A stretch of DNA of 64,000 nucleotides from a virus. Shown piece by piece: positions 7,692 through 23,880 of this stretch. The DNA is taken from positions 1 through 64,000 of IMG/VR virus record IMGVR_UViG_3300027763_000027; one strand, given 5' to 3'. The position numbers and the translations under genes are program-made. The notes beneath the pieces were generated by a model. It saw only the letters and a program-made list of their open reading frames with translations. It did not search any database and was not told the DNA's origin. The number at the start of each line of letters is the position of its first letter. Position 1 is the stretch's first letter.

Positions 7692-8257
7692 TGGGACAAG
7701 TTAAAGTAAATTTTGGAAAAATAGTTGAAGATAGTAAAACTTTTAGTGAAAAGTCAGAAGAGAATATCACTAATAAATATGAATCTAGTAAACAAGATTT
7801 TTTTTCTAAATTTGAAAATCATCCAGTAACACAAGAAATAGAATCTGGACCAGAAGCTAACAATTCTTCAAGAACATTGAATGGGGTAGGTAATTTATTT
7901 AGTTATATTGGTTTTGATAAAAATTCAGATCCAATATCTGTTTTAAGAGGAATATTAGATAAATCTTTTAACTTTAAAAAAACTAAAATAAAAAATGGAA
8001 AAAGATTTACTATTAATTACCCAACTTTAGACGAGATCAAAGCTAATACGCCTATGCCTTGGGAAGGCGGAAATAGTTGGGTGGTTGGAATTGAAAGAGG
8101 AATTTCTGGTTTTAGTAATTATATGTATAAAAAATTTGGAGGCGGAAGATCTGGACAAGGCCTTCAATCAGAAAATAGAATCCGAAGTGGTGGATTCAAA
8201 AAAACAAAATATATGACTGATTTAATTAATCAGTTTGTAAAACAAATATCAAAATGA
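7691..8257 (+). CDS. Putative neck/tail completion protein
   Basis: Basic, Gly-rich C-terminus; lies between the stopper and terminator candidates. Confidence 0.4.
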   Translation: MGQVKVNFGKIVEDSKTFSEKSEENITNKYESSKQDFFSKFENHPVTQEIESGPEANNSSRTLNGVGNLFSYIGFDKNSDPISVLRGILDKSFNFKKTKIKNGKRFTINYPTLDEIKANTPMPWEGGNSWVVGIERGISGFSNYMYKKFGGGRSGQGLQSENRIRSGGFKKTKYMTDLINQFVKQISK

Positions 8258-9099
8258 AAGCTCAATTAGATAATATTTTAATGTCAAGCATGATAATGTG
8301 GATGGATCATGTTATCTTAAAAAGAGGAGAAGCTTTTAAAAATAATAATACTAGCTTTTATCCAGTTACAAACATATACAATGGTTTTTATACATATGGA
8401 CTACCATTTAATCAAATAGCTTGCGATAGCTCTATACCAAATTGTCAAATACTTTCTGGCGTACATGTAAATAATGTTTTTAAAAAAATTGGAGAAGCTA
8501 ATCTAACGGCAATTACTCCAAGCGAAGGACATGTTCATTTTAGTGCAAATCAAATCGCTGCTAATAATAATTTAGTAGGTTTTTATGCAGTTAAAGATTT
8601 TAATATATATTTAACAAATTCACCAGATGAAGAAATCTTATTTGAAAGTCAATATAAAATTAGACCTAAAACAATACAAACTGCAGCAGGACTACCAATA
8701 GAAACAATAACTTACCCATGTATATTCTTAAAGAATAATGGTGGAGAAAATAAACCATTTGCTTTTGGTGGACAAGATAACACTCAACTTCTAGTAAGAG
8801 CTATTGTATTAGCTGATAATCTATTTAATTTAGATGGTGTTTGTGGTATATTAAAAGATACAGCTAGAGAATATATTCCATTAATAAGAAATAGTCCTTT
8901 TAATAACTTTGGTGGGCTAAATAATGGTCATTATGACTATGATAGTTTAACCAGTAATATTGATGTTGGAGTAGATGGCTTCTATATATCAGAAGTAAAT
9001 GTAAGTAAAATATTTGCTAATATTAAAACTAATAATAGTCAAGTATTTCCAGCTTTTGTTGATTTTACCCTTGAAAATATAAGGTATCCTAGATTATAA
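8254..9099 (+). CDS. Putative tail terminator
   Basis: Immediately upstream of the tail tube; YPCIFL...FAFGG pattern; synteny. Confidence 0.45.
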   Translation: MKAQLDNILMSSMIMWMDHVILKRGEAFKNNNTSFYPVTNIYNGFYTYGLPFNQIACDSSIPNCQILSGVHVNNVFKKIGEANLTAITPSEGHVHFSANQIAANNNLVGFYAVKDFNIYLTNSPDEEILFESQYKIRPKTIQTAAGLPIETITYPCIFLKNNGGENKPFAFGGQDNTQLLVRAIVLADNLFNLDGVCGILKDTAREYIPLIRNSPFNNFGGLNNGHYDYDSLTSNIDVGVDGFYISEVNVSKIFANIKTNNSQVFPAFVDFTLENIRYPRL

Positions 9100-9160
9100 T
9101 TTATATTTCTCAATAGATAAATTCAACTGTAATAAAGTATACAATTAGGAGAATTTTAAT

Positions 9161-10204
9161 ATGGCAAGAAAAAGAGTAATTTATCAAAGCGAGGCCCTCT
9201 TCGTAGGACCTACAGGAACAGCATCAAATCCAGTACAATTGAATAGAATTCAAAGTGCTAATTATGGATTTCAAGTAACTCGTCAAGATGTTAACCAATA
9301 TGGCAACTTGGCAGCAATTGATCGTATCATTTTGGAACAACCAACCGTTAATTTAGATTATAGCTATTATCTTAATAGTGGTGAAAACGAAAAGAATCTT
9401 GGTTTAACTCTTTCAACATCAAAAGGTGCTTTCGCAGATATTCTATCTGGAGTTGATACTAATGTTAAGAATTATTATATTTTAGTTTCTCCAGAAGGAA
9501 CTGACGCAAACGTAGATACAGGTATAGCCACAGGACAAGGTAAAGTTATTGGTCTAGGAAACGCATTTTTAACGTCTTATCAAATGAGCGCTGCAGTAGG
9601 AGAAATTCCAACTGCTAGCGTTAATGCAGAAGCTTTAAATATGAGATTCTATACTGGTACTGCAGCTTTTAATACTCCAGCGGTAAATCCAACAGACGGA
9701 CAAAATTTAACAGCAAGCATCACTATACCAGCTCCAGTTTCTGGAAGTGGATTTAGTGCTTTGCGTCCAGGAGATATTACATTAACTATTGATGGATCTA
9801 GAGGTCTTGATAAAACTGACTTGAAAGTGCAAAGCGTAAGCATGAGCATTGACGTAGCTAGAGATCCAATTCAAAAATTGGGAAGTAAATTCGCCTTTAC
9901 AAAAGAAATTACATGGCCAGTAACAGCTAAAATGACAGTAGAATCAATTCTAGGAGATCTGGAGGCTAGTAATTTGGCAGACGTAGTTAGTGATGACAAT
10001 GCTAAATATACTCTAAGTGTACTAATCAATAAACCAGGAACTCAAGTCCAAGCTATGAAATTCTCGTTAAAGGGGGCCAAGCTTGATTCACAAAGTTTCT
10101 CAAGCTCTATAGGAGACAATAAATCGGTAAGTCTAGAGTTTAGTTCGCAAGTAGGAGGACCTACAGACATTACAAACGGTATCTTTATAGAGGGTACAGC
10201 TTAA
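9161..10204 (+). CDS. Major tail (tube) protein
   Basis: Strong SD (AGGAG), followed by a terminator; beta-rich with tube-like motifs RQDVNQYG and RDPIQKLG; upstream of chaperones and tape measure. Confidence 0.7.
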   Translation: MARKRVIYQSEALFVGPTGTASNPVQLNRIQSANYGFQVTRQDVNQYGNLAAIDRIILEQPTVNLDYSYYLNSGENEKNLGLTLSTSKGAFADILSGVDTNVKNYYILVSPEGTDANVDTGIATGQGKVIGLGNAFLTSYQMSAAVGEIPTASVNAEALNMRFYTGTAAFNTPAVNPTDGQNLTASITIPAPVSGSGFSALRPGDITLTIDGSRGLDKTDLKVQSVSMSIDVARDPIQKLGSKFAFTKEITWPVTAKMTVESILGDLEASNLADVVSDDNAKYTLSVLINKPGTQVQAMKFSLKGAKLDSQSFSSSIGDNKSVSLEFSSQVGGPTDITNGIFIEGTA

Positions 10205-10229
10205 TTTGTAATTACATATTATAAACTAG

Positions 10230-10254
10230 AAAACCCCGCTATGCGGGGTTTTTT
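10230..10254 (+). terminator. Rho-independent terminator
   Basis: aaaaccccgc-tat-gcggggtttttt hairpin with U-tract after the tail tube gene. Confidence 0.9.
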
Positions 10255-10255
10255 A

Positions 10256-10261
10256 GTGTAA
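10256..10261 (+). promoter_or_regulatory. GTGTAA motif, putative late promoter
   Basis: Directly after the terminator, before the ATG at 10294. Confidence 0.6.
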
Positions 10262-10293
10262 ATAGGTATAAGGTTTAAGGATTTTAAAGGTTT

Positions 10294-10578
10294 ATGGCTA
10301 ATTTAAATATTAAAGAAATATTCACATTTCAAGTTCATAGAAATGTAGTTAACTTATATAAAAGATATCTTAATCTAGTAGAAGATCTTCAAGAAGAGCA
10401 TGTTTCAATGCTTAATAAATTAAATAAAAAGATAGATCTTGAAACTTTAAAAAATGTTGACTATTTTGATGAAAATAGATATAATTATATACGGAAAAAA
10501 ATATTAGACCTAGGAAATGAAACCATAAGGGAAATAAATAAAAGTCTAGATTTTTTTGAAAATAAAAATGAAAAATAA
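10294..10578 (+). CDS. Hypothetical protein
   Basis: 94-aa ORF with AAGG-rich leader, in the tail operon. Confidence 0.7.
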   Translation: MANLNIKEIFTFQVHRNVVNLYKRYLNLVEDLQEEHVSMLNKLNKKIDLETLKNVDYFDENRYNYIRKKILDLGNETIREINKSLDFFENKNEK

Positions 10579-10828
10579 ACTTATTAGATATGGCATCGAA
10601 GACGTTATTAAAGCTAATCTTGAAACTCAAAGCGTTCAGAGAGCGTTGAAAGAAAATTTTGGTTTATTAAAATCATCTTTTGATGTATTAACAAATGCAA
10701 GATATATTGCTAATTATTCAACATGGTCAGAAGAAAAAAGAAGACAGTTTATTATAACAATTGGCGGAAAAGTTAATTTTAAAAAAACTAAATCTTTTAT
10801 AGAAGAAAAACAAGGAAATAAAATATGA
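10568..10828 (+). CDS. Hypothetical protein (ATG at 10568 preferred over TTG at 10556)
   Basis: Overlaps both neighbours; ATGA coupling at 10825. Confidence 0.65.
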   Translation: MKNKLIRYGIEDVIKANLETQSVQRALKENFGLLKSSFDVLTNARYIANYSTWSEEKRRQFIITIGGKVNFKKTKSFIEEKQGNKI

Positions 10829-11628
10829 AAATGGATAAATTTTTGCACGAATTTTCGATTAATAGAGAAATCGAGGTAGAAGATATTGAAGTGAGTAAAA
10901 ATGAAAAAGGCGAAGAAGTAAAAGTTACCAAAAAACAAAAGAAAATAGAACCCGTAACCTTTAGACTCTTAAAACCAAATAGAAGACTTTTTGACGAAGC
11001 AGAATTATTTTATGGAATTAAACTATCAGAAGGAATTAAAGCTGGATTATTAACTAGATCACTATTAGCAAAAAGATATCAAAACGATGGCGGCTCAATG
11101 AGTGAAACTGAAAAAAGAAGATATACAGAGTTATATATTGAGCTTTATCGTTTAGAAAATGAACTACAAAGATTACAAGTTAATTTAGAAAAGATTTCCA
11201 AAGACGAACAGATAGATAAAATGGGGATAGTTTTAAATGATCTTTCTATTGCAAAAAAAGAACTACAACAAATTGAAAATTATCAATCGACAATTTTTGA
11301 TCAAACAGCAGAGAACAGAGCAAGAAATCAAACCATTTTATGGTGGGTTTTAAATATTTCTTACATCAAGCAAGATCAAGAATTCATTCCTTTCTTCGGA
11401 GAGGGAGATCACGACAAGAAGTTGGGCAGATATGACGAATACGAAGAGTCAGAAGATTTCTTCAAAAAAGAAGCTATGTCTAAATTAGCTTATTTTATTA
11501 GTTTATGGTACATGGGCAAAGCTAATAATGCAGAAGATTTTAAAAATCTAGAACTTTTATTCGAACAAGCGAAGACTCAAATTAAAGAAGACAAAACTGA
11601 AGATAAAAAAGAATCAGTAAGTGAATGA
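10825..11628 (+). CDS. Putative tail assembly chaperone
   Basis: Charged, coiled-coil-like protein between tail tube and tape measure. Confidence 0.5.
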   Translation: MKMDKFLHEFSINREIEVEDIEVSKNEKGEEVKVTKKQKKIEPVTFRLLKPNRRLFDEAELFYGIKLSEGIKAGLLTRSLLAKRYQNDGGSMSETEKRRYTELYIELYRLENELQRLQVNLEKISKDEQIDKMGIVLNDLSIAKKELQQIENYQSTIFDQTAENRARNQTILWWVLNISYIKQDQEFIPFFGEGDHDKKLGRYDEYEESEDFFKKEAMSKLAYFISLWYMGKANNAEDFKNLELLFEQAKTQIKEDKTEDKKESVSE

Positions 11629-12628
11629 GCTTTATAAAGAACAGCAATTAGCAAAAAAATTATATAGAGATATAGTTCAGGGTTATTCTATTTTTAATAA
11701 AGATAATAGTTATGTTTATTTCAAGCATTTGACCGAAATAGAATTTGCCGAATCACAAGATCAGTATATAAGATTACTTAGTGACTCAAAAAAACGCGGG
11801 TTATTAGATGAAAAAGACAAAATAAAAATTTTATGCGACCAAGGTATTTGGTCGAATGAAAAAGAAAATGAAATTAAATCTTTAAATAAAGAGATTGTAG
11901 GTGACGAGGCAACTTTAAATAAATTAATTATAAAATCTCAAATTAATCAAATAAGAGATTCTATGAAAACTAAGCAAGAAAAACTTGATGAAATTAATAA
12001 AGAAAGAGATGAGCTTTTAGGCTTAACTGCTGAGAGATATGCTTTTAAGAAATCTAATGAATTTTTATTATATTTAACTCTTTACAAAGACTCTTCTTTT
12101 AAAAATAGAATATTTGAAGAAGATAAGGATGACTTTTTTGATATAGAAGATCGTGAATTAATGGAATATATTAACATATATAAAGAATTTAATACTATGT
12201 TCGATGCAGAGAATATTAAGAAAATAGCAGTTTGCTCATTTTTTATGAATAACTTCTTTCATTGTGAAGATAATCCTTATTATTTTTATGGTAAACCAAT
12301 AGTTGAATTAACTCAAAATCAAATGCAATTATTTTATATAGCTAAAAATTACAAATATTTATTAACTAAAAATGGAGAAAATCCTCCAAATAATATAGAA
12401 AGCTTAAATGATTTAATAAATTGGTATGAGAATAGATCTTCGGCTTCTAATTTAAAAGATAAAATTGCAGAGGATAAGCTAGGACAAACTTATATTGGCG
12501 CATCGAAGGAAGAGCTTAAAGCCATGACAGCGTCCTCTAAAGAAGAAGTATTAGATTTAAATCAAGAGTCTAAAAAGCTTGGTGGAGATTTATCTTTCGA
12601 ACAAATCTTAAAAATACACGGAATTTGA
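11621..12628 (+). CDS. Putative second tail assembly chaperone
   Basis: GTG start overlapping the previous stop; directly upstream of the tape measure. Confidence 0.45.
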   Translation: MNELYKEQQLAKKLYRDIVQGYSIFNKDNSYVYFKHLTEIEFAESQDQYIRLLSDSKKRGLLDEKDKIKILCDQGIWSNEKENEIKSLNKEIVGDEATLNKLIIKSQINQIRDSMKTKQEKLDEINKERDELLGLTAERYAFKKSNEFLLYLTLYKDSSFKNRIFEEDKDDFFDIEDRELMEYINIYKEFNTMFDAENIKKIAVCSFFMNNFFHCEDNPYYFYGKPIVELTQNQMQLFYIAKNYKYLLTKNGENPPNNIESLNDLINWYENRSSASNLKDKIAEDKLGQTYIGASKEELKAMTASSKEEVLDLNQESKKLGGDLSFEQILKIHGI

Positions 12629-12662: not shown

Positions 12663-15600
12663 ATGGCAGAAGGCAAAGATCGCATTATTATTGATGTTTT
12701 GGGTAATACTCGTCCATTGGAGAAAGAGATCCAAAGGGTAGCTAACCAATCATTAACTTTAAATACAAAAGGCTTTTCTGCGCCTTTAGGTAAAATAAGT
12801 GGTCAATTAGGTGAATTTGAAAAATCATTAGCAGCATCTAATGCTCGCGTTATTGCGTTCGGTGCTTCTGCTGGAGCTATTTACGCTGTTCAAAAAGCTT
12901 TCCAAGAAACAATCAAAAGTGTTATTGATGTAGAAAAAGCTCTTACAGATATTAATGTTATATTAAATGTAAGTCAAAAAAGTTTAAGCGAATTTGGTTC
13001 TGGATTATTTAAAATAGCAAAAGACACAGGAACATCTTTTCAAGAAGTTACAAGAGCTGCTACCGAATTTTCTAGACAAGGTCTTGGAGTTACTGACACA
13101 TTAAAAAGAACTAGTGATGCACTAATTTTAACTAGATTAAGTGGACTAGATGTAGTGAGTAGCGTAGAAGCTATTACGGCTGCATTAAATTCATTTAATC
13201 AAACATCAATAACTTCAAACGAGTTGGTAAATAAATTAGCTGCAGTTGACGCATCTTTTGCAGTAAGTTCTGGAGATCTTGCAGAAGCTATTAAAAGAGT
13301 AGGTAGTAGTGCTCAAGATGCTGGAGTTTCACTTGATCAATTAGTCGCGCTAGTAACATCAGCTCAACAAACAACCGCTAGAGGTGGAGCTGTTATTGGT
13401 AACAGTTTTAAAACTATTTTTACAAGACTCGAAAGACCAAAAGTTTTAGATGCATTAGATGAATTAGGAATAAAAACTAGAGATATTGAAGGAAATGCTT
13501 TGCCACTTATCCAAGTGCTACAAGAATTATCAAAAACATTCGATACTTTAAGTGGAAGTCAAAGAGCCCAAATTGCAGAATTAGTCGGTGGCGTATTTCA
13601 AATTAATATTTTAAAAGCTGCATTATCAGATTTAAGTAAAGAATATTCTATATATGGTCAAGCATTAGGTATCTCGTCTACCGCTACAGACGAAGCAAAT
13701 CAAAGAAATGAAGCTCTAAATAAAACTTTATCTGCTACAATAAATAAAACTTTAGCAAATCTACAAGGCGCAGCAAGTCAAATTGGACAAGTAGCTTTTG
13801 GCCCAGCTTTAGAAAGAGCTTTGGGAGGATTAAATTCTGTATTAGAAAATTTTGGAGAATCAAAAGATACAGAATCTATAGGTGAAAAAATTGGTCAAGG
13901 TTTGCTGTCTGGTCTTGGAAACTTTTTATCTGGTCCTGGATTACTTTTAGGTTTAGCTACAACATTTAAAGTTTTTGAAAGATTAACCGTTTTTGCTTCA
14001 GATGCATTCAAAAGTTTATCAAGTATAAGTACGCAAAACACAAATCAACAAGCTTTACAAACTCAAATTTTAAATTTATTAGGTAAAAATCCTCAAATTA
14101 TAGAACAAATTAATAAAGGTAATTTAAGCACAACGTCTTTACATAATCAAATTTTAACTTTAATACAACAAGAAACAGCAGCAATGCAACAACAAGTCGC
14201 TATAGCTAACACTTTAGCGAAAAGTTTATCTGCTGTAGGCGTAAATGTAGCTACTACTGGTCCTTATAAAGGAGCGGCTATTTCAAGAAATAAAGCTTTA
14301 GGATTTATTCCTAATTTTAGTGCATCAGATGAAATTACTGGAGCTTTAATGGGAGGTTATTCTCCTGGAAGTATTAAAAAAACTTCTATACCAAATTATG
14401 GTCAAGTAACATACAATAGTGCAGAAAAAGTTAAAAAAATTGACGGCTTATCTCAACAAGCAATAATGCCTCCAGAAAAAAGTCCAGCTGGACAAGCTTA
14501 TAAAAATAATTTTCAAAATATTCACGGATTCAATCCTTATGCATCAAGAGGGTTTGTGCCTAATTTTGCACCAGCAGACCGAACAGATGCAATGATTTCT
14601 AAAGGTTACATAAGAATTAGTGGCGCAGAAGCCACACAGTACTTACAAAGAACTAATGGGCAATTAAAAGACACTGCAACAAGCTTAGGGGTAGTTAGAG
14701 ATAAAGGCAATCTATATGTTCCTCAAGGAAACTACAACAAACTAATTAATAATTTAAAAACAAATTTAGAAACGAAAGCTGTTGGACGGGGAGAGCAGCT
14801 AGAGGGCAAACTAAATCCATACGCTTTAGTTTATCCAAGTTTTCAACAATCGACTTCATTTGGTACTTATGGAACAGCTGGTGGTAAAAAAATAGGATTT
14901 TATGCAGTCCCATTTCCTGGACAATTGAAAGACAAAGATAGAGAAATGATAGGGCCAGGTCTCTACGCTCAAGCGATAGACGGAATTGTAAATACAGCTT
15001 CTAATTTTTTAAATGATTTAGCTGGAGTATCTCCAGAAGTAATTAATAGCAGTAAATTCAAAAATTATTTAAAAAGTAATATAAGTCAAGATCAGATTGG
15101 TTCTTTAGTTGGAAACGCATTTGAAGGCGGAGTGTTATCGGCATTAAATATAATACCAGACGATAGAACTAGAAATCTAGATTTGACATCAGCTGAACTT
15201 AAAAAATTAGGAGAAACTTTTAAAGTTAATCCCTTAATGGGCACAAATTATAGAGGAGGAGACTTTAAAAACTCACTATCTGGTGGAAATTTAGATAGTA
15301 TGGCTAATAAAATATTAACCAGTCAAAATGCAGCTTTTGGGTTTATACCTAATTTTTCTCCAATTAAAAAAGCTTTGAATGCAGAAAAAAACTTGGGAGG
15401 AAATGGAGTTTTAGATTTTGAACCAGGATTTGGGCTTTATGTTAGAGACAAAAATACACAGAAAAATTTTAGTGACGTTAAAAAAGATCATCCAGAAGGA
15501 TTAAAAAAAGCTATAAGTAATTCTTTTGGAGTTCAAAAAAATATGGCAGCTTTTGGATTTATTCCTAATTTCGCTCCAGCTCTCCCAACATTAAGCCCAC

Positions 15601-18600
15601 AAGAAGCTGCGGGAAATAATGAGATTGCAAAAAGAATGGCGACTTTAACTCCAGAATTAGATTCAAGTATAAAAAATTTATCAACAAGTTTGAAAAAAGC
15701 AGCAAATTCGTTCGATCAATTGGGGGCTGGTGCTGAAAAAGCTTCAACCGAAGTACAATCTACAAATTTAGGATCAACTGTAGCTCAAGCTAACACAAAA
15801 ATTCAAAAACTTGGGGATTTATTTAATGATGATAAAATAGGAGCAGGTCTTCAAAAATTTAAACAAAATTTAGGATTTGCATCAATTGGAATTTCAATGG
15901 CAGGAGGATTTTTAGCTGAAACATTTGGATCAGATAATAAAGCTCTAAAAGATGGCATAAACGGCTTAAGTCAAGGGCTATCGACAGCCACAACCGCAGT
16001 AATGTTAATACCAGGTCCAGCTGGTCTAGTTGTAGGGGCATTTACCGCATTGTATACAGCCGCTTCAACTGTTGCAAAATATATCAAACAAAATGGAGAA
16101 GATTTAAGTAAAAAATTAGAAGATTCAAAACAAGCTGCTTCTGATTTTGCTAATTCTTCTCAAACCCTTTCTCAAGTTCAACAAAAATTAGCTGATGCTT
16201 ATAAAAATACAAAAACTTCTCCAGCAGAATTAGATAAATTAAATAAACAACTAGTTGATGCAATAGGTGATTTACCAGAAAAATATAGAATGCAATTATT
16301 AGGAATTGGTGATAATATTAAATTACAAGAAGAAATGACTAAAGTTCAAGGTGAATTAGTAAAAGAACAAAAAAATTTAGAATTTGCTTCAGCATATTCA
16401 GCTAAACTATTAGATTCAGCTTTTACGACCCCAGATGTATTTAAAAATTTATCAGATTTAAATTCTGCTGCAAAAAGTATTTTGGCAGGTTTCTCAAAAG
16501 AAGGTAAGACTAATTTCATAGCGGATGTAGAGAACCAAGCTGTTAATTTAACGAAATCATCTCAAACGCAATTCATTAAATATTTAAAAGAATTTTATGG
16601 TTTAAACTCAAACATAGCTGGAGCTCTAGAAAAAGCAAATCCTCAAGAAATAAATAATTTAAAAACAGCTTTAATCAAATTAGGCACGGACGCAAAGAAT
16701 AGTAAAGATGCAGTAGAGGCTGGAGCCGAGTCAAGAAAAGCTGAAATTTTAAAATTAGAATCACTTAAAAAAGCTGCAGACGCAGCAGATGCAGCTGTAG
16801 AAAATTTAAATGATTCATTATTAGGACTAATTTCGGCTTCAATTAGTGGAAGTGAATTTAAATCACAAAATAGACAAAATGAATTGGCAAATCAAAGCGC
16901 GATAGAATTAAATAGAGCAACTGGTAATTTAAACACTAGATCAGATTTTAGTAGTCCAGAGTCTGTTAATAGAGTGCAAAATATTATAGATTCTCAAAGA
17001 AGAAACGAAGACACTTTAAAAGGTTTTAGAGACGCAATATCTGGATCAAGAAATGAAATTAGTAATGCCGTACAAGATTTATTAAAAAAATTATCAAGTC
17101 CAGATAGTGGATTAAGCGCTTCTCCAGAAATAATTAAACAACTTGGTCAAAGATACATGAATATTGGTTCTCAAAATTTAAATCCTAAAGATTATGCTGA
17201 TGCAATTTACAAAGCTACGATGGACCTTATGGGGCCAACTAATACTAGAGCAAGTGGTCTACAAGATAAATTAATTTCTATTAATCAACAAGCAAATCAA
17301 AGACTTTTAATGATAAGCCAAGAAGCAATGAAAAATAATCAAATTGCTCAAGATAATTATAAAATACAGCAACAAATGCTACAAGACAAAAGAGATGTAT
17401 CTGCGATGGGTGGATTAGAAGGCTATGCTTCTGGTGGATCTTATGATAAAATTAGACAAATTTTACAAGATTTCAAAACAACAAGAGGCGGAGGACAAAG
17501 TAGAGCAGCTCTTTTAGGTGAAACTATTAATTTAGCTGGAGGAGGATTTAATGAAAAATTCTTAAAAGGTTTGACTCCATTTACAAATACTTTAAAAACT
17601 CAAAGAGCGCAAGATATAAGATCTAATGCTCTGAGTATAGCTAGAAACTCACCAGGAGGCATTGCGCCAATCTTTAGAGACATAGCAAAAAGATCTTATG
17701 ATATTGCCTCAAAACAAGTTGATTTCGCTATAAAATCTAGTCAGGCTGATGCAGAATTAGGTTTAAATGTAAAAAGTATATTAGGCATATTAGAAAAAGC
17801 AAATCTTAATCAACAGCAATCGGCAAAAGAAATAAACCTTCCTGGTAATTTAGACAATGCTAAAAAAGCATTAGAGAGAGACTATAAATCAGAATATAAA
17901 TCTATAGAAGAAGAAATTAAACGTGCACAAAATATAGCTGCTTCTAATAGAAGTTACCAAGGATTAGGAGAAGAAATTGGGCAAAAAAGTTCAAGAATAG
18001 ATTACATGGAAAAAAGAAAAGCCCAAATACAAAAAGAAAACGAATCATTAGTGCAACAATTAGAAGCTTCTAATCTTCCAGAAAAAGTTAAAACTTTCTT
18101 ACTAGATCAAATAAATCAAGCTTTGGAAACTGGACAAGAAGTACCATCTATTTCTAAATTACAACAAGGCTTCACAAGTAAATATGGGGCAAATAGAAGT
18201 CAAGAAGGCATGGAGGCTAATCCAAATATAAATTATGATTTAGAAAAACAATTAAATGAATTAAAAAAATTAAATATACAAAGCATATTAGGAGATTTAA
18301 GTAAAAATCAAACAGACACTCAAGCTATAAAAACTAATATAGAAGGCATAAGCGAAGCTCTAAGGAGAGCGAATGAAGAAGCTGAAATAATGAAAAAAGC
18401 TTTAGAAGCAGTAGGAGAAAAACCAATAGATATTACTGCTCCAATTAATAGAACTAATGATCAATCGAGTATTATACAAATCGACACGAAACCCATAAGT
18501 TTAAATATACCAGAGAACGCTATCAATCTACAAATGGGCGGAAACATTACTGTCGATCCTATCAATTTCAATGTATCATTAGATCAAACAACAGACCTAA

Positions 18601-18749
18601 CAAGTATGATAACTCCAATTGCAGAAAAGATTGTTACAGACATTAATTTAGCTCTGACAGATAGCTTACAACAACAAATATCAACTCTTAAACAACAAAT
18701 TTCTGATTTGGGTGGAAGAAGGTTGCCTCCAGAAAGAATGTTGGTATGA
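12663..18749 (+). CDS. Tail tape measure protein (TP901-like core) with internal GFIPNF-delimited modules
   Basis: 2028 aa, helical; core motifs EFSRQG, AEAIKRVGSSA, TARGGAVIGNSFKTIFTRL. Confidence 0.9.
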   Translation: MAEGKDRIIIDVLGNTRPLEKEIQRVANQSLTLNTKGFSAPLGKISGQLGEFEKSLAASNARVIAFGASAGAIYAVQKAFQETIKSVIDVEKALTDINVILNVSQKSLSEFGSGLFKIAKDTGTSFQEVTRAATEFSRQGLGVTDTLKRTSDALILTRLSGLDVVSSVEAITAALNSFNQTSITSNELVNKLAAVDASFAVSSGDLAEAIKRVGSSAQDAGVSLDQLVALVTSAQQTTARGGAVIGNSFKTIFTRLERPKVLDALDELGIKTRDIEGNALPLIQVLQELSKTFDTLSGSQRAQIAELVGGVFQINILKAALSDLSKEYSIYGQALGISSTATDEANQRNEALNKTLSATINKTLANLQGAASQIGQVAFGPALERALGGLNSVLENFGESKDTESIGEKIGQGLLSGLGNFLSGPGLLLGLATTFKVFERLTVFASDAFKSLSSISTQNTNQQALQTQILNLLGKNPQIIEQINKGNLSTTSLHNQILTLIQQETAAMQQQVAIANTLAKSLSAVGVNVATTGPYKGAAISRNKALGFIPNFSASDEITGALMGGYSPGSIKKTSIPNYGQVTYNSAEKVKKIDGLSQQAIMPPEKSPAGQAYKNNFQNIHGFNPYASRGFVPNFAPADRTDAMISKGYIRISGAEATQYLQRTNGQLKDTATSLGVVRDKGNLYVPQGNYNKLINNLKTNLETKAVGRGEQLEGKLNPYALVYPSFQQSTSFGTYGTAGGKKIGFYAVPFPGQLKDKDREMIGPGLYAQAIDGIVNTASNFLNDLAGVSPEVINSSKFKNYLKSNISQDQIGSLVGNAFEGGVLSALNIIPDDRTRNLDLTSAELKKLGETFKVNPLMGTNYRGGDFKNSLSGGNLDSMANKILTSQNAAFGFIPNFSPIKKALNAEKNLGGNGVLDFEPGFGLYVRDKNTQKNFSDVKKDHPEGLKKAISNSFGVQKNMAAFGFIPNFAPALPTLSPQEAAGNNEIAKRMATLTPELDSSIKNLSTSLKKAANSFDQLGAGAEKASTEVQSTNLGSTVAQANTKIQKLGDLFNDDKIGAGLQKFKQNLGFASIGISMAGGFLAETFGSDNKALKDGINGLSQGLSTATTAVMLIPGPAGLVVGAFTALYTAASTVAKYIKQNGEDLSKKLEDSKQAASDFANSSQTLSQVQQKLADAYKNTKTSPAELDKLNKQLVDAIGDLPEKYRMQLLGIGDNIKLQEEMTKVQGELVKEQKNLEFASAYSAKLLDSAFTTPDVFKNLSDLNSAAKSILAGFSKEGKTNFIADVENQAVNLTKSSQTQFIKYLKEFYGLNSNIAGALEKANPQEINNLKTALIKLGTDAKNSKDAVEAGAESRKAEILKLESLKKAADAADAAVENLNDSLLGLISASISGSEFKSQNRQNELANQSAIELNRATGNLNTRSDFSSPESVNRVQNIIDSQRRNEDTLKGFRDAISGSRNEISNAVQDLLKKLSSPDSGLSASPEIIKQLGQRYMNIGSQNLNPKDYADAIYKATMDLMGPTNTRASGLQDKLISINQQANQRLLMISQEAMKNNQIAQDNYKIQQQMLQDKRDVSAMGGLEGYASGGSYDKIRQILQDFKTTRGGGQSRAALLGETINLAGGGFNEKFLKGLTPFTNTLKTQRAQDIRSNALSIARNSPGGIAPIFRDIAKRSYDIASKQVDFAIKSSQADAELGLNVKSILGILEKANLNQQQSAKEINLPGNLDNAKKALERDYKSEYKSIEEEIKRAQNIAASNRSYQGLGEEIGQKSSRIDYMEKRKAQIQKENESLVQQLEASNLPEKVKTFLLDQINQALETGQEVPSISKLQQGFTSKYGANRSQEGMEANPNINYDLEKQLNELKKLNIQSILGDLSKNQTDTQAIKTNIEGISEALRRANEEAEIMKKALEAVGEKPIDITAPINRTNDQSSIIQIDTKPISLNIPENAINLQMGGNITVDPINFNVSLDQTTDLTSMITPIAEKIVTDINLALTDSLQQQISTLKQQISDLGGRRLPPERMLV

Positions 18750-18774: not shown

Positions 18775-20412
18775 ATGGCATATACATTTACAGATGCAAC
18801 TTTATTAAGTTATCAAGTAAATAAAAATTACTTGGGAGAAGGCGTTGCCTCTTTGAATGAAAGAGTTAAAATTACTATTAAGGGTATCTTTGATAATAGA
18901 TTAACAAACTCTAAAGGCTATGGCGTTAAAGCTACGATTGATAATATTAAAAACTTATTGTTGACTACATCAAATGTTTATGATGATATCATTGTAAATA
19001 ATTTTAATCTTGGTAAGGGTATTATCACTAATATATCTTTTCCAAAAGATAATCCAATTATTTTTGGAGATTATAGTTACGACATAGAAATAATAAACAG
19101 TACGGATTTTTCTAATATTCCTACTGGTAGTACAACTTATGGGTCTACTTTATCTTCTTTAAAAGATTTGATAAATACTTTTGATGAAAAATTTGATTTT
19201 AATTACGGTCAAGATGGGACTTACACGTGCAGCCACTCTATTACTTTGCAATACTTTAATGATAAAACAGATGTTATTGCAAAATGTAAGACTTTAGCCA
19301 ACGCATTATTTAATGAAAATTTATCATTAGGATTAATCGGCAAATTTGCTGGTCAATACGCATCTTTAAAAACTAAAAAGAATTATTATTCTGAAAGTTA
19401 TGATTTAGTAACTAAGACATGTACTTTTACAAAAGAAATAGAAATAAATGAAAATACATTATCTTCTTATTCTAATTCTATATCTCATTCATTAACTTTT
19501 AGTGAAAACGGAAAAACAACAATACAAGAGCAAGGGTTAATAAAAGCTCTTGACGATACCCAATCTTTTACTGCAGAAAATTATTTTAATACAGAAATAA
19601 ATAATTCTTTTTCAAGATGTCAACAATTTTTTAATAGTTATGCCACAAAATATTCACTAGGTTCCGTGGATTCTCTTATCAACGCTTCATATGAGCTGGG
19701 AAAAACAATTAATCTAGTAGATAATAGTTTGGGATATTCCATATCATATACAAATGATCTGAGCGCAGAACAGAATTTGATTCACACTTATTCTAAAGTA
19801 GTAAATACAAATCAAGAGGGTGTTACCACTGTATCAGAAGAAGGAGAGATAAGTTTAAAAGCTATATTGGGAACCATAGTGAATTTAAACCAATTTAAGG
19901 TAAAATACCTAACGGCAAAATTACGAATAGATAATGATCCTTTATACGCGGGTTATAATAAATCTCGTGCCTCAATGAGCTATGAAAAAATTGCATCTTC
20001 TAATTATGGAAATAAATTTACTTATAGAATAGAAAAAAATAATGAAAAGAAAAATGCTCTTGCAGATAACTCAGTTTATAAAAGTTTACAGCTCTCAATA
20101 CAGGACGATAAACCCGCTGAGATATATAAAGAATATATCATTGCGAATAGAATTCCAAAAAATGTACTTTTTACTTTAGGAAACCAAGTACAAATGGGAA
20201 CTCGAACAGTTCAAATAAATGGAACTTTAACTAAACCTGCCTCAGACGTATGGAGTACGCCAAGAATTTTTCCTTTGAGTGACTTAAAAAGTATAGCGAT
20301 TAATAATGGTCTTGTTGGTATAAGCAAAGATGCTTATATAAGTGAAGTATCATATGGATACGGGTCTAGTAATGATTTCTCATTCACTATGACTTTAATG
20401 TATTTGGTATAA
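18775..20412 (+). CDS. Tail-tip/baseplate structural protein
   Basis: Follows the tape measure; beta-rich 545 aa. Confidence 0.55.
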   Translation: MAYTFTDATLLSYQVNKNYLGEGVASLNERVKITIKGIFDNRLTNSKGYGVKATIDNIKNLLLTTSNVYDDIIVNNFNLGKGIITNISFPKDNPIIFGDYSYDIEIINSTDFSNIPTGSTTYGSTLSSLKDLINTFDEKFDFNYGQDGTYTCSHSITLQYFNDKTDVIAKCKTLANALFNENLSLGLIGKFAGQYASLKTKKNYYSESYDLVTKTCTFTKEIEINENTLSSYSNSISHSLTFSENGKTTIQEQGLIKALDDTQSFTAENYFNTEINNSFSRCQQFFNSYATKYSLGSVDSLINASYELGKTINLVDNSLGYSISYTNDLSAEQNLIHTYSKVVNTNQEGVTTVSEEGEISLKAILGTIVNLNQFKVKYLTAKLRIDNDPLYAGYNKSRASMSYEKIASSNYGNKFTYRIEKNNEKKNALADNSVYKSLQLSIQDDKPAEIYKEYIIANRIPKNVLFTLGNQVQMGTRTVQINGTLTKPASDVWSTPRIFPLSDLKSIAINNGLVGISKDAYISEVSYGYGSSNDFSFTMTLMYLV

Positions 20413-20416
20413 ATAT

Positions 20417-22069
20417 ATGGCGACTAATTATATAAAATACAACTCAAATCAATTAATTTATCCAACCCCATTAGTTGAGTTGTCTAGAGAAAATGCGTAT
20501 GATAATAATCATTTAGGTTTTGTCGACAAAATTACTTTGAAAGGCCAACTAACTGGAAATTTTTATCAATTACAAACTGGCCAAAGCGGAATATTAAATA
20601 TCTTTAATAAAAATTTTGGATTATTTGAGATTTATGAAGAAACTCCTAGGGGTAGTAGCGTGATATTTGAAAAAATTTATGAAAAAAGTGGAATCAATAT
20701 TACGTCTATATCCTTTGAAGAATCAGCTTATAATGGTATGTTGAATTATACAGTTGAATTAAATTCGTCAACAATGAGTGGAAATGTTGTAAATCCAGTG
20801 AATCAATATAATTTTGTAGAAAATAAAGATAAAACAATATCTTTATCTCATAGCATTTCTGCGCAAGGAATAAATACGGCTAGTTATCCATCTAAATCTA
20901 ATGCATTAGAAAATGCGATAAGTTTTGTGACACAAAATACTGGGCTAGCAAACGTACCAACGATAAAATTTATAAGTGGCGCAAGCAATAATTTTTATTT
21001 ACAAAATATTTCAGAATCTATAGATCGCTTAAACGCTATATACTCTATAGATGAATCTTATACTAGTAGTTTATTAAGTACTGGAAGTTCAGGAATTTTA
21101 AAATATTCTATCGACATTTCTTCTGGCGTAGCAGCTGATTCATTAAGTTTATCGATAAAAGGGAGTTATAAAGGGGCGTTAGGTGGTAATATAAATGATT
21201 TAAGAAATAGTTTAAATGTAACTAAATTGGTATCTGGAGCATACTCTAGTTATTTTAATCCAATACCAATTAATTATAGTATTTCAGAGAATACTGGGGA
21301 AAATATAATAAATTTTGATTATTCTTTTGATAATATCAATTTACCAAATCCATACTTTAAATACGACACAAGTGTAGAAAAAGATGATATCGAACAAGTT
21401 ATAAAAGTAGATATAAACGCGAGTATTATTACTAGAGGAAATAGATATAATAGATATTTATTATCCCAAGCCGCTCAAGCTTCTTTAAATACTGGTCTTT
21501 TTGCTATTGCAAGCGGAGCAGTATTAGATTTTAAAGATTTTAATAGCGATACAGGATACTATAAATTAAGATTACAGAATATAGAGTTTATAGATAATCC
21601 AAATGAGGGAGTCATAACGGCAAAAGCCTCTTATGATGATAAACCCATGCCAAGTGGAGACGACCCAGCAATCGCTGATTCTTCTTTTCAAATATCTGTT
21701 CAAGCCCCATGCTGGTATATGGTTGGCGTGCCAGCAATTAATCAAAGAGGTTACTATATTATAAATGATTTTGATATTACTACATTACCAAAATGCACAA
21801 TCGAATCAACCGTATCAATAAAAGATGGGACATCTCAGGGTTCAACTACATCTATACAAAATAATATTAAAAATTCAATCGGAATAATTTCGCCTAGCGA
21901 CTATAATTTTAATATAACTATAAAAGAATCTTTTTCCGAAGAAAGAGCAAATTTAGATCAAACCTCTAATTTGACGCAACCAATTTTAAACACAAAAAAT
22001 GTAAATTATAAAATTGAAAAAGTATGCACGACTAACCAAAGCTCTATTTTTCCAAAGATATATCAATGA
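20417..22069 (+). CDS. Tail-tip/baseplate structural protein
   Basis: Similar size and composition to the previous gene; both have ITxISF and HSI(S/T) elements, possible paralogue. Confidence 0.55.
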   Translation: MATNYIKYNSNQLIYPTPLVELSRENAYDNNHLGFVDKITLKGQLTGNFYQLQTGQSGILNIFNKNFGLFEIYEETPRGSSVIFEKIYEKSGINITSISFEESAYNGMLNYTVELNSSTMSGNVVNPVNQYNFVENKDKTISLSHSISAQGINTASYPSKSNALENAISFVTQNTGLANVPTIKFISGASNNFYLQNISESIDRLNAIYSIDESYTSSLLSTGSSGILKYSIDISSGVAADSLSLSIKGSYKGALGGNINDLRNSLNVTKLVSGAYSSYFNPIPINYSISENTGENIINFDYSFDNINLPNPYFKYDTSVEKDDIEQVIKVDINASIITRGNRYNRYLLSQAAQASLNTGLFAIASGAVLDFKDFNSDTGYYKLRLQNIEFIDNPNEGVITAKASYDDKPMPSGDDPAIADSSFQISVQAPCWYMVGVPAINQRGYYIINDFDITTLPKCTIESTVSIKDGTSQGSTTSIQNNIKNSIGIISPSDYNFNITIKESFSEERANLDQTSNLTQPILNTKNVNYKIEKVCTTNQSSIFPKIYQ

Positions 22070-23874
22070 ACTTATCATATTTAAATAACTATTTTTCTGA
22101 TAAATCTTTGAATAAAGATGCTATACAGTTATATTATGATTTTGATCAAGTATCTGGAGTCTTCTTGAAGAATAAAATTTATGAAAATGAAGTGCAATTT
22201 TATCCTGTCGCACAAGGATTTTCTATAAATAAAAAATATTCGCCAGCTTTCTTCAATACAAAATATGGCCAAGTTAGTTTTACTGGTTCAGGTGTTTTTC
22301 AGGGCACGAATACAATGCAAATTTTTGAAGAATCTACTTCTGCTGATAATAGTCTATTTATTAATTTTGGAAGATTGAATTGTAATAAAAATTTTACTTT
22401 AAATGGTGATTTAATTTCTATACCAACTGGAAAAATACAAACATTAGGCTATATAAAATCAAAAAATAATACAAACCCATTTCAAATTATATTAGGGTTA
22501 AATGACGCAAATGATCTTACTCTTGAGTTTTCTGGGGGCACAGAATCTTACAAAACAGTAACTCCCAAGGAGTTATCTTTTCAGAATATTTGTTGTTTAA
22601 AATTTGGGCGTAATATCTTGGAGCTTAATTATTATGATATTATAGAAAATGAAACTCATAAGTCTAGAATAGATATAACTGGAAATTACTTTGAACAAAA
22701 TAAACAGCTGTATATTGGTAATGTAGGTTCTGGTTTTCTAGATCAAAATTATACTGGATTTTTTGGAACTGTCGATGACATTTTATTACTTAATAATATT
22801 CCAGATGATGCGCAAAGCTTTGGGCTTGCTAAATTATTTATAAAAACTGGTGAATATATTGATGTAGTTAATCTAACTGGATTAACATTTAATGTTATTA
22901 GTAATGCTTTTTTAAATCCTACAGGTATAATTGGAGTAGGAATAAATGGTTATCAAGATATAAAAATTGAAGAAGCTTTAGTAAGTGGTTCTTTAACTGG
23001 TATTTATATACAGTCTGGCGTTACAGGGAATATTACTGGAGAAACAATAGAAATTCAGACTTCTACTCAGTCTGTAATATCTAATACTGGGCAAATTATC
23101 ACAAAATACGAACTATATGATGAAAAGTACTCTTCTAATTTTACAAAAGATAATATCATTTTTAATAAAAAAACAGATGACCAAGACATTTTTGAAATTC
23201 AATTTTATTTAGATTCTCAAATAAAAATTAGTCATTTTGACTACTCTAATGTATCTGATATATATGTAGCTAAAGATAATGTATCAGATAAAAACAACTC
23301 TATATATATTAACGGAATTCGATTAGTATCTGGGATAAATTATGAATATACACAACCAAATGTTTTTATTACTAACGATTACCCTAAAGGAGACTCTAAC
23401 GACTTAGCTTTTTATACCGTTTCTAGTCTAACAGGAAATAAAGTTTATCAAACAGATTTTAATAGGTCTTCTGAGTCTGGAGACTACTATTTAGCTTATT
23501 CTTTTTCGGATAATAATTCTAATTGGGGTAGATCAAATATATTCTTAAATGGGCAAAAATTAATATCTGGATTTAATTATCTTATCGCTGGGCAAAATTT
23601 AAATAATCTTTATTTATATAAAAATTTACCAACTGGGTCACTTACTATTGTAAAAGACAATTTTATCTCAGGGGTAACGGGAAATAATACTAAAATATAC
23701 AATTCGTCTTTGAAGTATAACAATGAGCAGATTTGGCTTAATGGAATATACCAGTACAAGGGGATTGATTATATATTATCTTCTTGTTATAATTCATTAA
23801 TGAGCGCTTCTGGAGATATAGAGGTCAAAGAGAACTATATATTCGATAATGAATATTACAGATTTAATTTATAA
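22066..23874 (+). CDS. Virion structural protein (LamG/ConA-like N-terminal part, NG-repeat C-terminal part)
   Basis: LYYDF...LYIG...FFGTVDD pattern; repeated (I/L)NG motifs IYINGIRL, IFLNGQKL, IWLNGIYQ. Confidence 0.5.
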   Translation: MNLSYLNNYFSDKSLNKDAIQLYYDFDQVSGVFLKNKIYENEVQFYPVAQGFSINKKYSPAFFNTKYGQVSFTGSGVFQGTNTMQIFEESTSADNSLFINFGRLNCNKNFTLNGDLISIPTGKIQTLGYIKSKNNTNPFQIILGLNDANDLTLEFSGGTESYKTVTPKELSFQNICCLKFGRNILELNYYDIIENETHKSRIDITGNYFEQNKQLYIGNVGSGFLDQNYTGFFGTVDDILLLNNIPDDAQSFGLAKLFIKTGEYIDVVNLTGLTFNVISNAFLNPTGIIGVGINGYQDIKIEEALVSGSLTGIYIQSGVTGNITGETIEIQTSTQSVISNTGQIITKYELYDEKYSSNFTKDNIIFNKKTDDQDIFEIQFYLDSQIKISHFDYSNVSDIYVAKDNVSDKNNSIYINGIRLVSGINYEYTQPNVFITNDYPKGDSNDLAFYTVSSLTGNKVYQTDFNRSSESGDYYLAYSFSDNNSNWGRSNIFLNGQKLISGFNYLIAGQNLNNLYLYKNLPTGSLTIVKDNFISGVTGNNTKIYNSSLKYNNEQIWLNGIYQYKGIDYILSSCYNSLMSASGDIEVKENYIFDNEYYRFNL

Positions 23875-23880
23875 GTGTAA
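23875..23880 (+). promoter_or_regulatory. GTGTAA motif, putative late promoter
   Basis: Immediately after the stop at 23874, before the ATG at 23911. Confidence 0.55.

What the first reader, a model, noticed from the sequence alone, without database searches (positions are those of the whole stretch)
14290..15580. Tape measure protein carries GF[I/V]PNF-delimited cassettes, one resembling a PD-(D/E)xK nuclease
Four copies: ALGFIPNFS (about 14295), SRGFVPNFA (about 14544), AFGFIPNFS (about 15333) and AFGFIPNFA (about 15549). They bracket globular, non-coiled segments. The ~250-aa segment between copies 2 and 3 has GNAFE...NLDL...GDFK, the order of restriction-endonuclease-fold motifs. Inference: the repeats are processing or recombination boundaries for exchangeable cargo injected with the DNA, like a polymorphic effector system inside the tape measure.
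Basis: partly seen in the sequence, partly recalled or inferred. Interest (0 to 1): 0.7.

Follow-up and report, generated by a model that had tools for sequence, protein, structure and literature searches.

The report
Tape measure protein with swappable cassette
The tail-length "ruler" protein of an uncultured 172-kb freshwater phage has three folded modules in its middle, each fenced by the same six-residue peptide, and related phages exchange the large middle module exactly at that peptide; what the module does, and whether the peptide is cut, is untested.

Summary
Observation confirmed. The 2028-aa TP901-family tape measure protein (12663-18749, +) has exactly four GF[IV]PNF hexapeptides, at aa 547, 630, 893 and 965. 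These are the only four in the 171.9-kb phage genome.

The motifs sit in low-confidence linkers between three modules: S1 (77 aa), S2 (256 aa) and S3 (66 aa). At least 683 metagenomic tape measure proteins matched this region. Nearly all of the roughly 200 inspected keep the motif at the same module borders.

The exchangeable-cassette reading holds for S2:
- In pairs whose N-terminal domains are at least 90% identical, median identity is 90% in S1, 88% in S3 and 27% in S2.
- The reverse also occurs, with S2 95% identical on a 67% backbone.
- DNA homology stops and restarts within a few bases of motifs 2 and 3.

Cleavage at the motif, delivery into the host and S2's activity are inferences only.

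This scan has found the same theme on other DNA. I found no paper describing the motif. I class it as a new variant of tape measure proteins with embedded domains.

The parts
12663..18749 (+). Tape measure protein gene, 2028 aa (P0001), TP901 / PhageMin_Tail family
   Evidence: The ORF was listed and translated. PF10145 matches at E 4.9e-31 (108.6 bits, cut-off 33.2) over aa 119-306. Twelve tape-measure PHROGs match the N-terminal third.
13017..13580 (+). PF10145 PhageMin_Tail domain (aa 119-306), the conserved helical core of the tape measure protein
13902..13997 (+). First hydrophobic, Gly-rich stretch (aa 414-445), upstream of the module array
   Evidence: Kyte-Doolittle scan with 19-aa windows, score above 1.3
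14301..14318 (+). Motif 1, GFIPNF (aa 547-552)
   Evidence: pLDDT is below 50 in the AF2 model.
14319..14549 (+). Module S1 (aa 553-629), a small alpha/beta domain conserved in nearly all relatives. It has 23 invariant residues, including E..GA..GGY.PG and YN.AE.
   Evidence: Alignment A5. AF2 pLDDT is 75-85 with helix-4 strands-helix. There is no PDB sequence match.
14550..14567 (+). Motif 2, GFVPNF (aa 630-635), the left junction of the exchanged cassette
14568..15338 (+). Module S2 (aa 636-892), the exchangeable cassette, with a variable N-terminal half and a conserved C-terminal core
   Evidence: AF2 gives pLDDT 91.7 and pTM 0.88. The family occurs only inside tape-measure-like proteins.
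14955..15338 (+). Conserved core of S2 (about aa 765-892). It holds the invariant or near-invariant residues G817, F820, E821 (GNAFE, nt 15111-15125), D840 (NLDL, nt 15174-15185), D867 and K869 (GDFK, nt 15258-15269), A881 and K883.
   Evidence: Alignments A2 and A3. hhalign to the second cassette family aligns the same motifs at probability 87%, E 3.9e-6.
15339..15356 (+). Motif 3, GFIPNF (aa 893-898), the right junction of the exchanged cassette
15357..15554 (+). Module S3 (aa 899-964), a small module of the 'DHPEG' type. Relatives carry a second main type, 'NPLGLGVYNTKDEP', at the same place.
   Evidence: Alignments A6 and A7. The two types show only weak likeness. The AF2 model is poor here.
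15555..15572 (+). Motif 4, GFIPNF (aa 965-970)
15870..16082 (+). Second hydrophobic stretch (aa 1070-1140), downstream of the module array
   Evidence: Kyte-Doolittle scan, maximum 1.86

Best explanation
The region is a module array inside a tape measure protein (TMP). Three independently folding modules (S1, S2, S3) are strung between two hydrophobic stretches of an otherwise helical TMP. Each is joined to the next by one constant junction peptide, [AK][SA]xG[FY][IV]PN[FY][AS].

Shown:
- The junction peptide is kept as a peptide across TMPs that have otherwise diverged widely.
- The large module S2 is exchanged horizontally as a cassette, with crossovers at or next to motifs 2 and 3.
- Relatives add, drop or replace other modules at the same peptide.
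- All common S2 variants share a C-terminal core with invariant Glu, Asp and (D/E)xK residues, while the N-terminal half varies.

Inferred:
- The peptide has a constant protein-level job that any module can rely on, either as a docking or hinge element in the tail or as a processing site.
- Its 18-nt coding sequence (GGWTTTATWCCWAATTTT in these AT-rich phages) gives an always-in-frame place where recombinants survive.
- S2 is a host-facing part of the genome-delivery step. It would leave the tail with the TMP, refold, and bind or cleave a host component. The conserved acidic/lysine site would do the chemistry or bind a metal, and the variable half would set specificity.
- Frequent replacement would then reflect host differences or escape from exclusion and defence.
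For: Motif reality and conservation:
- Four copies are present against 5e-5 expected, and there are only four in the 172-kb genome.
- 683 proteins matched the region. Of the best 120 proteins and 80 IMG/VR loci inspected, nearly all keep 2-6 motifs at the same borders.
- G, P and N are invariant in 284 motif instances, while synonymous codons vary as they do elsewhere in the gene.

Linker position:
- All four motifs have pLDDT below 50, between confidently folded S1 and S2.

Exchange:
- P0031 and P0033 are 92-94% identical to the window's TMP in the N-terminal 400 aa and 83-88% in S1 and S3, but BLAST finds no similarity in S2.
- Among 129 non-redundant TMPs there are 36 backbone groups and 21 S2 types. 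Thirteen of the 20 groups with more than one member hold at least 2 S2 types, and 11 types occur in at least 2 groups.
- In the 525 pairs with N-terminal identity of at least 90%, median identity is 90% in S1, 88% in S3 and 27% in S2.
- Reverse cases exist: P0112/P0121 (N-terminal 67%, S2 95%) and P0033/P0084 (60% and 80%).

Breakpoints:
- In 110 discordant locus pairs, DNA homology ends -1 to +5 nt from the last base of motif 2 in 98 pairs. It restarts -3 to 0 nt from the first base of motif 3 in 72 of 102.

Shared core: hhalign between cassette families 0 and 1 gives probability 87% and E 3.9e-6 and aligns GxxFE, FD and DxK.

Precedent from established knowledge: TMPs carry functional domains used at infection, such as TM4 motif 3 (PMC1796659) and the T5 pb2 peptidase, which is cut off after R1127 (PMC10038345).
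Against: - No activity, fold family or partner is known for S1, S2 or S3. All fold and profile searches were empty.
- Delivery into the host and refolding are assumed, not shown.
- The pairs used in the exchange and breakpoint counts are not phylogenetically independent, so the number of separate events is smaller than the counts suggest.
- The edge of DNA homology marks where variable sequence begins, not necessarily the crossover. In P0112/P0121 the left junction lies about 20 aa before motif 2.
- A folded 28-kDa domain in three copies would hardly fit a tail-tube lumen (my estimate), so the state of the array in the virion is unclear.
Confidence: 0.6

Rival explanations
1. Processing sites. 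The GF[IV]PNF peptides would be cleavage sites at which a phage or host protease cuts the TMP during tail maturation or after ejection, freeing S1, S2 and S3 as separate proteins (a polyprotein). This is compatible with the cassette exchange and differs only in what the peptide does.
For: - The motifs lie in predicted flexible linkers exactly at module borders.
- T5 pb2 is cut after R1127, between its hydrophobic stretch and its enzyme domain (PMC10038345).
- Read from NC_005859, that T5 site is ...NSFVPR|AEGGMMYPG. It shares F-V-P followed by a small residue, then E, GG and Y-PG, with GF[IV]PNF-[AS]..E..GA..GGY.PG at the start of S1.
- Lambda gpH is also processed (cited).
Against: - The likeness to T5 is a handful of residues, and hhalign of the array profile against pb2 aa 1090-1219 finds nothing (E 0.61).
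- No protease domain was found in the TMP or in the 18 neighbouring ORFs scanned.
- Four cuts would break the ruler into five pieces.
- Known TMP processing is a single cut near the C-terminus.
- A bulky aromatic hexapeptide with invariant G, P and N looks more like a docking motif than a typical scissile site (my judgement).
Confidence: 0.3
2. S2 would be a PD-(D/E)xK nuclease carried in the TMP and injected with the DNA to cut host or competitor nucleic acid.
For: - E821, D840 and D867-x-K869 occur in the order and with the conservation expected of a PD-(D/E)xK site. They are the near-invariant residues across 41 divergent S2 sequences and in a second cassette family.
- E821 lies in a helix, while D840 and DFK lie at short strands.
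- Three restriction-endonuclease-like chains (Bse634I, Cfr10I, 3hrl) appear among the 50 listed weak structural rows.
Against: - Foldseek against the PDB and BFVD gave no match with E <= 0.001.
- The model has two helices, not a hairpin, between the D strand and the DxK strand. It has no strand between the Glu helix and the D strand, and none after the last helix.
- No Pfam family matches at E <= 1 apart from scattered single-member chance hits, and there is no PDB sequence match.
- phmmer over 1.84 billion representatives finds S2 only inside TMP-like proteins, never as a free nuclease.
Confidence: 0.12
3. Structural array. The modules would be parts of the tail itself, such as a spacer, a plug or contacts with tube, chaperone or terminator, and would not be effectors. 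S2 would vary because it is weakly constrained, and the motif would be a hinge that keeps the chain in register.
For: - The array and its order S1-S2-S3 are kept at the same distance from the N-terminus (motif 1 at about aa 540-550) in most relatives.
- S1 is highly conserved, with 69% mean column identity.
- Removing TM4 motif 3 shortens the tail, which shows that embedded domains count toward tail length (PMC1796659).
Against: - Weak constraint does not explain the horizontal transfer of near-identical S2 between 60-67% identical backbones.
- It also does not explain the invariant polar residues in the S2 core.
- Replacement of one module while the flanks stay about 90% identical is the pattern of host-interaction or conflict loci (general knowledge).
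Confidence: 0.15
4. DNA-level signal. The 18-nt motif sequence would be conserved chiefly as a recombination site, and the peptide would be a by-product.
For: - Breakpoints coincide with the motif to within a few bases.
- Any two copies share about 14-16 of 18 nt because of AT-rich codon use.
- The Pro codon CCT is enriched in the motif, at 65% against 33% elsewhere.
Against: - Synonymous positions of Gly, Ile and Phe vary in the motif about as much as elsewhere.
- The four copies in the window differ at 1-3 synonymous sites.
- Conservative residue variants (Y for F, V for I, L in a few) are tolerated, while G, P and N never change. This is selection on the peptide.
Confidence: 0.08

Closest known systems
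Tape measure proteins with embedded functional domains: mycobacteriophage TM4 motif 3 (Piuri and Hatfull 2006, PMC1796659) and T5 pb2 with its C-terminal peptidase (Linares et al. 2023, PMC10038345)
   Same: A non-helical, folded domain sits inside or at the end of the tail ruler, next to hydrophobic stretches, and is presumed to act during genome delivery. Relatives of this TMP also carry glucosaminidase or YkuD domains.
   Different: Here there are three modules in a row, each fenced by one invariant hexapeptide. The large module has no recognisable wall-hydrolase or other known fold. It is exchanged between lineages far more often than its flanks. The known lytic domains of relatives lie elsewhere, at aa about 2100-2260, and are not fenced by the motif.
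   Same: A short invariant peptide marks the border between a constant delivery part and a variable, horizontally exchanged domain, and recombination joins at its coding sequence.
   Different: The cassette here is internal and fenced on both sides rather than C-terminal. No immunity gene travels with it, since DNA homology resumes at motif 3 inside the same ORF. The carrier is a phage tail protein, and toxicity is not shown.
Polyvalent proteins of phages and conjugative elements (Iyer et al. 2017, PMC5512222)
   Same: Several disparate domains are made as one polypeptide that is thought to enter the host with the DNA and to be separated during deployment.
   Different: That paper does not mention tape measure proteins (0 occurrences). 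Its proteins typically carry a peptidase domain for processing and recognisable enzyme domains. No peptidase or known enzyme domain was found here.
Maturation cleavage of T5 pb2 after R1127
   Same: The cut lies between a hydrophobic stretch and a folded domain. The local sequence SFVPR|AEGG..YPG resembles GF[IV]PNF[AS]..E..GGY.PG.
   Different: Only a few residues match and there is no profile-level homology. T5 has a single site, not four. Cleavage in this phage family is untested.

Membership tests
TP901-family / PhageMin_Tail tape measure protein (PF10145) | Match to the PF10145 profile above Pfam's gathering score | tested here: met
   E 4.9e-31, 108.6 bits against a cut-off of 33.2, over aa 119-306. 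Tape-measure PHROGs match down to E 5.8e-44.
TP901-family / PhageMin_Tail tape measure protein (PF10145) | Very long, largely helical protein with hydrophobic stretches, encoded among other large + strand ORFs of a phage genome | tested here: met
   The protein is 2028 aa and lies among large + strand ORFs in a 171.9-kb virus record. Hydrophobic stretches lie at aa 414-445 and 1070-1140. The neighbours could not be named.
PD-(D/E)xK nuclease superfamily | Acidic residue in a helix, then (P)D, then (D/E)xK, in that order and conserved | tested here: met
   E821, D840 and D867-F-K869 are invariant or near-invariant in A2 and A3 and align in a second cassette family.
PD-(D/E)xK nuclease superfamily | Alpha-beta-beta-beta-alpha-beta core, with D and (D/E)xK on adjacent strands of a four-stranded mixed sheet | tested here: inconclusive
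PD-(D/E)xK nuclease superfamily | Sequence-profile match to a described nuclease family | tested here: not met
   No nuclease family matched when the 41 members were scanned against Pfam at E <= 1. The PDB profile search gave only lectin or albumin chance rows.
Polyvalent proteins (Iyer et al. 2017) | Several recognisable effector or enzyme domains plus a processing peptidase in one polypeptide | tested here: not met
   PF10145 is the only significant Pfam match in the whole protein; the one other row at E <= 1 is a chance hit (TFR_dimer, E 0.2, below its cut-off). The modules have no family.
Polyvalent proteins (Iyer et al. 2017) | Delivered into the recipient cell together with the DNA | not testable with these tools
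   This needs virion and infected-cell proteomics.
Polymorphic-toxin-like cassette systems (CdiA-CT, Rhs-CT) | Conserved junction peptide at the border of a horizontally exchanged variable domain | tested here: met
Polymorphic-toxin-like cassette systems (CdiA-CT, Rhs-CT) | Variable domain is a C-terminal toxin that travels with a cognate immunity gene | tested here: not met
   The cassette is internal to the ORF and homology resumes at motif 3. There are no orphan cassettes or extra motif copies in the genome.
T5 pb2-type maturation cleavage | The TMP is cut at a defined site that separates a folded domain from the ruler | not testable with these tools
   Only a short likeness of the site was seen, with no homology.

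The most novel reading that the evidence does not exclude
GF[IV]PNF would be a universal cut-or-dock signal that turns the tape measure protein into a programmable carrier. Any domain placed between two copies would be packed into the tail, released into the host at infection and freed from the ruler. S2 would be a new-fold metal-dependent enzyme whose alleles are traded among aquatic phages in an arms race with host envelope or defence factors.
Probability: 0.2. Interest if true: 0.85.

Novelty: new variant of a known kind. Interest (0 to 1): 0.6.

Why it matters
If the array works as inferred, the tape measure protein is also a modular payload carrier, not only a ruler and channel former.
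- It would have a defined plug-in junction that evolution uses again and again.
- This would add a second hypervariable host-interaction locus to long-tailed phages, besides the receptor-binding proteins.
- It would define at least three orphan domain families, one of them with a confident model and no known fold.
- It would give phage engineers a natural in-frame site for inserting cargo.
- It makes a concrete question testable: whether proteins other than wall hydrolases are delivered by the tape measure protein.

If the modules turn out to be purely structural, the finding is still a clean example of recombination confined to domain linkers.

Tried and rejected

Sequence searches:
- Pfam on the whole protein and on 41 S2 members found nothing. 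PDB profile searches for S2 and S1 found nothing.
- The ESM Atlas gave no usable hit for S2 or S1.
- PHROGs and Pfam on 18 neighbouring ORFs named almost nothing.

Rejected idea: S1 and S3 are not repeats of one unit, since hhalign shows no likeness.

Complex prediction with three copies of motif 2-S2-motif 3 returned no verdict (score 0.02, mark 0.42). It counts neither for nor against oligomerisation.

Relatives and hosts:
- tblastn of S1 against 50,697 GenBank phage records found no match, so no cultured relative is known.
- A single-protein scan of IMG/VR found nothing, but the alignment query worked.
- The scan of species genomes gave only seven short MAG contigs of mixed taxa, so there is no host call.

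Other:
Breakpoints for the window's own clade are therefore at protein level only.
- The metagenome scan returned only more distant relatives.
- A full-text search for the motif strings found no phage paper.
- hhalign to T5 pb2C found nothing.
Full report
**What is there.** The finding lies in one 6087-nt ORF (12663-18749, + strand). It encodes a 2028-aa tape measure protein (TMP). PF10145 PhageMin_Tail matches aa 119-306 at E 4.9e-31, above Pfam's cut-off, and twelve tape-measure PHROGs match the N-terminal third. The window is the first 64 kb of a 171.9-kb IMG/VR virus record that CheckV rates as complete. Earlier notes of this scan call it a freshwater phage. GC content is about 30%. Eighteen neighbouring ORFs gave almost no PHROG or Pfam match, so this is a poorly charted phage group.

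**Checking the observation.** GF[IV]PNF occurs four times in frame, at aa 547, 630, 893 and 965 (nt 14301, 14550, 15339, 15555).
- Composition predicts 5e-5 copies.
- There is no further copy in six frames of the window.
- The degenerate DNA pattern finds only these four places in the whole genome, with zero hits for the control.

**Anatomy.** The motifs divide aa 547-970 into S1 (77 aa), S2 (256 aa) and S3 (66 aa). The array lies between two hydrophobic stretches, aa 414-445 and 1070-1140.
- AF2 on aa 530-990 with a 36-row alignment gives S1 a small alpha/beta fold (pLDDT 75-85) and S2 a confident fold (82-94). S3 is poorly predicted. All four motifs fall in stretches with pLDDT below 50, so they behave as linkers.
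- S2 folded alone with 41 rows reaches pLDDT 91.7 and pTM 0.88.

**Relatives.** A search with aa 530-990 found 683 proteins at E <= 0.001, all long TMP-like proteins. IMG/VR holds at least 147 loci, of which 80 were fetched.
- Nearly all of the sequences inspected keep the motif at the same borders, with 2 to 6 copies.
- Over 284 instances the consensus is [AK][SA]xG[FY][IV]PN[FY][AS]. G, P and N never change. Degenerate forms such as GFTPNF and GHIPE stand where the strict pattern fails.
- Synonymous codons in the motif vary about as elsewhere in the gene, except that Pro CCT is enriched. Selection therefore acts mainly on the peptide.
- No GenBank phage record has S1, and no paper in the library contains the motif strings in a phage context.

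**The cassette.** Segment-wise BLAST showed at once that S2 does not follow the backbone. P0031 and P0033 are 92-94% identical to the window's TMP over the first 400 aa and 83-88% in S1 and S3, yet have no detectable similarity in S2. More distant proteins keep S2 at 53-57%.

Among 129 non-redundant TMPs with the canonical four-motif layout:
- There are 36 backbone groups (N-terminal identity at least 90%) and 21 S2 types (at least 50% identity).
- Thirteen of the 20 groups with more than one member contain two to seven S2 types.
- Eleven S2 types occur in two or more groups.
- In the 525 pairs with N-terminal identity of at least 90%, median identity is 90% in S1, 88% in S3 and 27% in S2.

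The reverse pattern proves transfer rather than fast drift. P0112 and P0121 are 67% identical in the N-terminal domain, 67% in S1 and 53% in S3, but 95% in S2. P0033 and P0084 are 60% and 80%.

S3 also exists in two main forms that can differ between otherwise similar proteins. Some relatives carry extra or different modules between motif copies, of 105, 155, 244 and 410 aa.

**Where the junctions are.**
- For five locus pairs with DNA in hand, BLASTN homology ends 0 to 5 nt after motif 2 and resumes 0 to 9 nt before motif 3. An example is L017/L048, which ends at nt 1893 (the last base of motif 2) and resumes at 2691, one base before motif 3.
- Over 110 discordant locus pairs, the left edge lies -1 to +5 nt from the end of motif 2 in 98. 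The right edge lies -3 to 0 nt from the start of motif 3 in 72 of 102.
- These edges show where variable DNA starts. The two reverse-transfer pairs give the transferred tract itself. In P0033/P0084 it runs from motif 2 to motif 3. In P0112/P0121 it runs from about 20 aa before motif 2 to motif 3.
- In the window's own clade the break against P0031 and P0033 falls directly after motif 2. Similarity returns at GDFKNS and fully at motif 3.
- The pairs are not independent events, so the counts overstate the number of exchanges.

**What S2 is.** phmmer over 1.84 billion representatives found S2 in 14 clusters only. Twelve are long TMP-like proteins of 1855-3181 aa and two are shorter proteins of 716 and 961 aa, and none is annotated as a nuclease.
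- The N-terminal half of S2 is variable. The C-terminal core holds the only invariant or near-invariant residues: G817, F820, E821, D840, F853, D867, K869, A881 and K883.
- BLAST clustering gave nine families of long cassettes. The two largest are remote homologues over this core (hhalign probability 87%, E 3.9e-6), with GxxFE, FD and DxK aligned.
- A loose pattern for the triad matches 172 of the 189 unique long cassettes. Families 3, 4 and 7 lack it entirely.

The fold test does not bear out a PD-(D/E)xK nuclease.
- Foldseek against the PDB and BFVD gave no match with E <= 0.001.
- In the model the Glu sits in a long helix, D840 starts a two-residue strand, two helices follow, and DFK lies on a four-residue strand before the last helix. 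This is not the beta hairpin of the restriction-endonuclease core.
- Pfam and PDB profile searches were empty.

I read S2 as a domain of unassigned, possibly new fold with a conserved acidic/lysine site, which fits an enzyme or a metal site. I give about 12% to a nuclease. Relatives with longer TMPs carry glucosaminidase or YkuD domains at aa about 2100-2260, outside the array. S2 is therefore probably not simply the wall hydrolase of this family.

**What the motif does.** Its role as a junction of exchange is shown. Its protein-level role is inferred.

- The paper places the cut after R1127, between the hydrophobic stretch and the peptidase domain, and shows that the TMP is a trimer (PMC10038345).
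- The T5 record reads ...NSFVPR|AEGGMMYPG at that position.
- This shares F-V-P, a small residue, then E, GG and Y-PG with GF[IV]PNF[AS]..E..GA..GGY.PG at the start of S1. It is suggestive but short, and hhalign finds no homology.

I therefore hold processing at about 0.3, as a rival to a docking or hinge role. No protease was found nearby.

**Comparison and novelty.** Embedded domains in TMPs are known, namely TM4 motif 3 (PMC1796659) and T5 pb2. The idea of multi-domain proteins delivered with the DNA is also known (PMC5512222), although that paper does not mention tape measure proteins.
- New here are the invariant junction peptide on both sides of each module, the very high exchange rate of one module, and the orphan fold.
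- The closest working analogy is the VENN or DPxGL junction of polymorphic toxins (my knowledge, not checked). However, the cassette here is internal and no immunity gene travels with it.
- The scan has met the same theme in other genomes. Three look-alike windows carry the same four-motif layout, and eight listed follow-ups on related motifs reached similar verdicts. Those notes are not independent evidence.

**Verdict.** The cassette-boundary reading is supported for S2, and partly for S3 and the extra modules. The nuclease fold is not supported, and processing and injection are untested. I class this as a new variant of a known kind, with interest 0.6.

Noticed in passing
window 4430-5059 (+): A 209-aa ORF matches PF16754 (Pesticin, the lysozyme-like C-terminal domain) at E 1.2e-7, above the cut-off. 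It is a likely muralytic protein in the structural region.
   Followed up: no
window 25960-28773 (+): A 937-aa ORF downstream of the TMP has five FG-GAP repeats (PF14312, E 3.8e-36). It may be a tail fibre or adhesin.
   Followed up: no
window 8254-12628 and 18775-25956 (+): None of the ten ORFs flanking the TMP matches any PHROG at E <= 0.001, and none has a Pfam match at E <= 0.01. Tube, chaperone and tip proteins could not be named. Two large ORFs (267 and 335 aa) lie directly upstream of the TMP, where small chaperone genes are usual.
   Followed up: partly
relatives P0015 (aa 2098-2230) and P0047 (aa 2101-2259): Longer relatives carry a glucosaminidase (PF01832) or a YkuD L,D-transpeptidase-type domain (PF03734) far C-terminal of the array and not fenced by the motif. 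The window's TMP has neither.
   Followed up: partly
relatives P0111 and P0118 (aa about 2012-2525 and 1779-2331): Two relatives have a second group of motif copies near the C-terminus, fencing a 410-450-aa module and a module of about 85 aa. The junction peptide is therefore used at more than one place in a TMP.
   Followed up: no
L095 (phage T5, NC_005859) pb2 aa 1096-1160: The published pb2 cut after R1127 lies in ...NSFVPR|AEGGMMYPG. This is a short likeness to the motif plus the start of S1, with no profile homology.
   Followed up: yes
motif codons in 83 TMP genes (window and loci L001-L087): The Pro codon in the motif is CCT in 65% of cases against 33% elsewhere in the same genes. Other codons follow the gene-wide usage. 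This is unexplained.
   Followed up: no
alignment A1, C-terminal parts of long relatives: Long relatives share repeated 'DD[VI]PAxLxxGEYVxxK' stretches near their C-termini. I did not look for them in the window's TMP.
   Followed up: no
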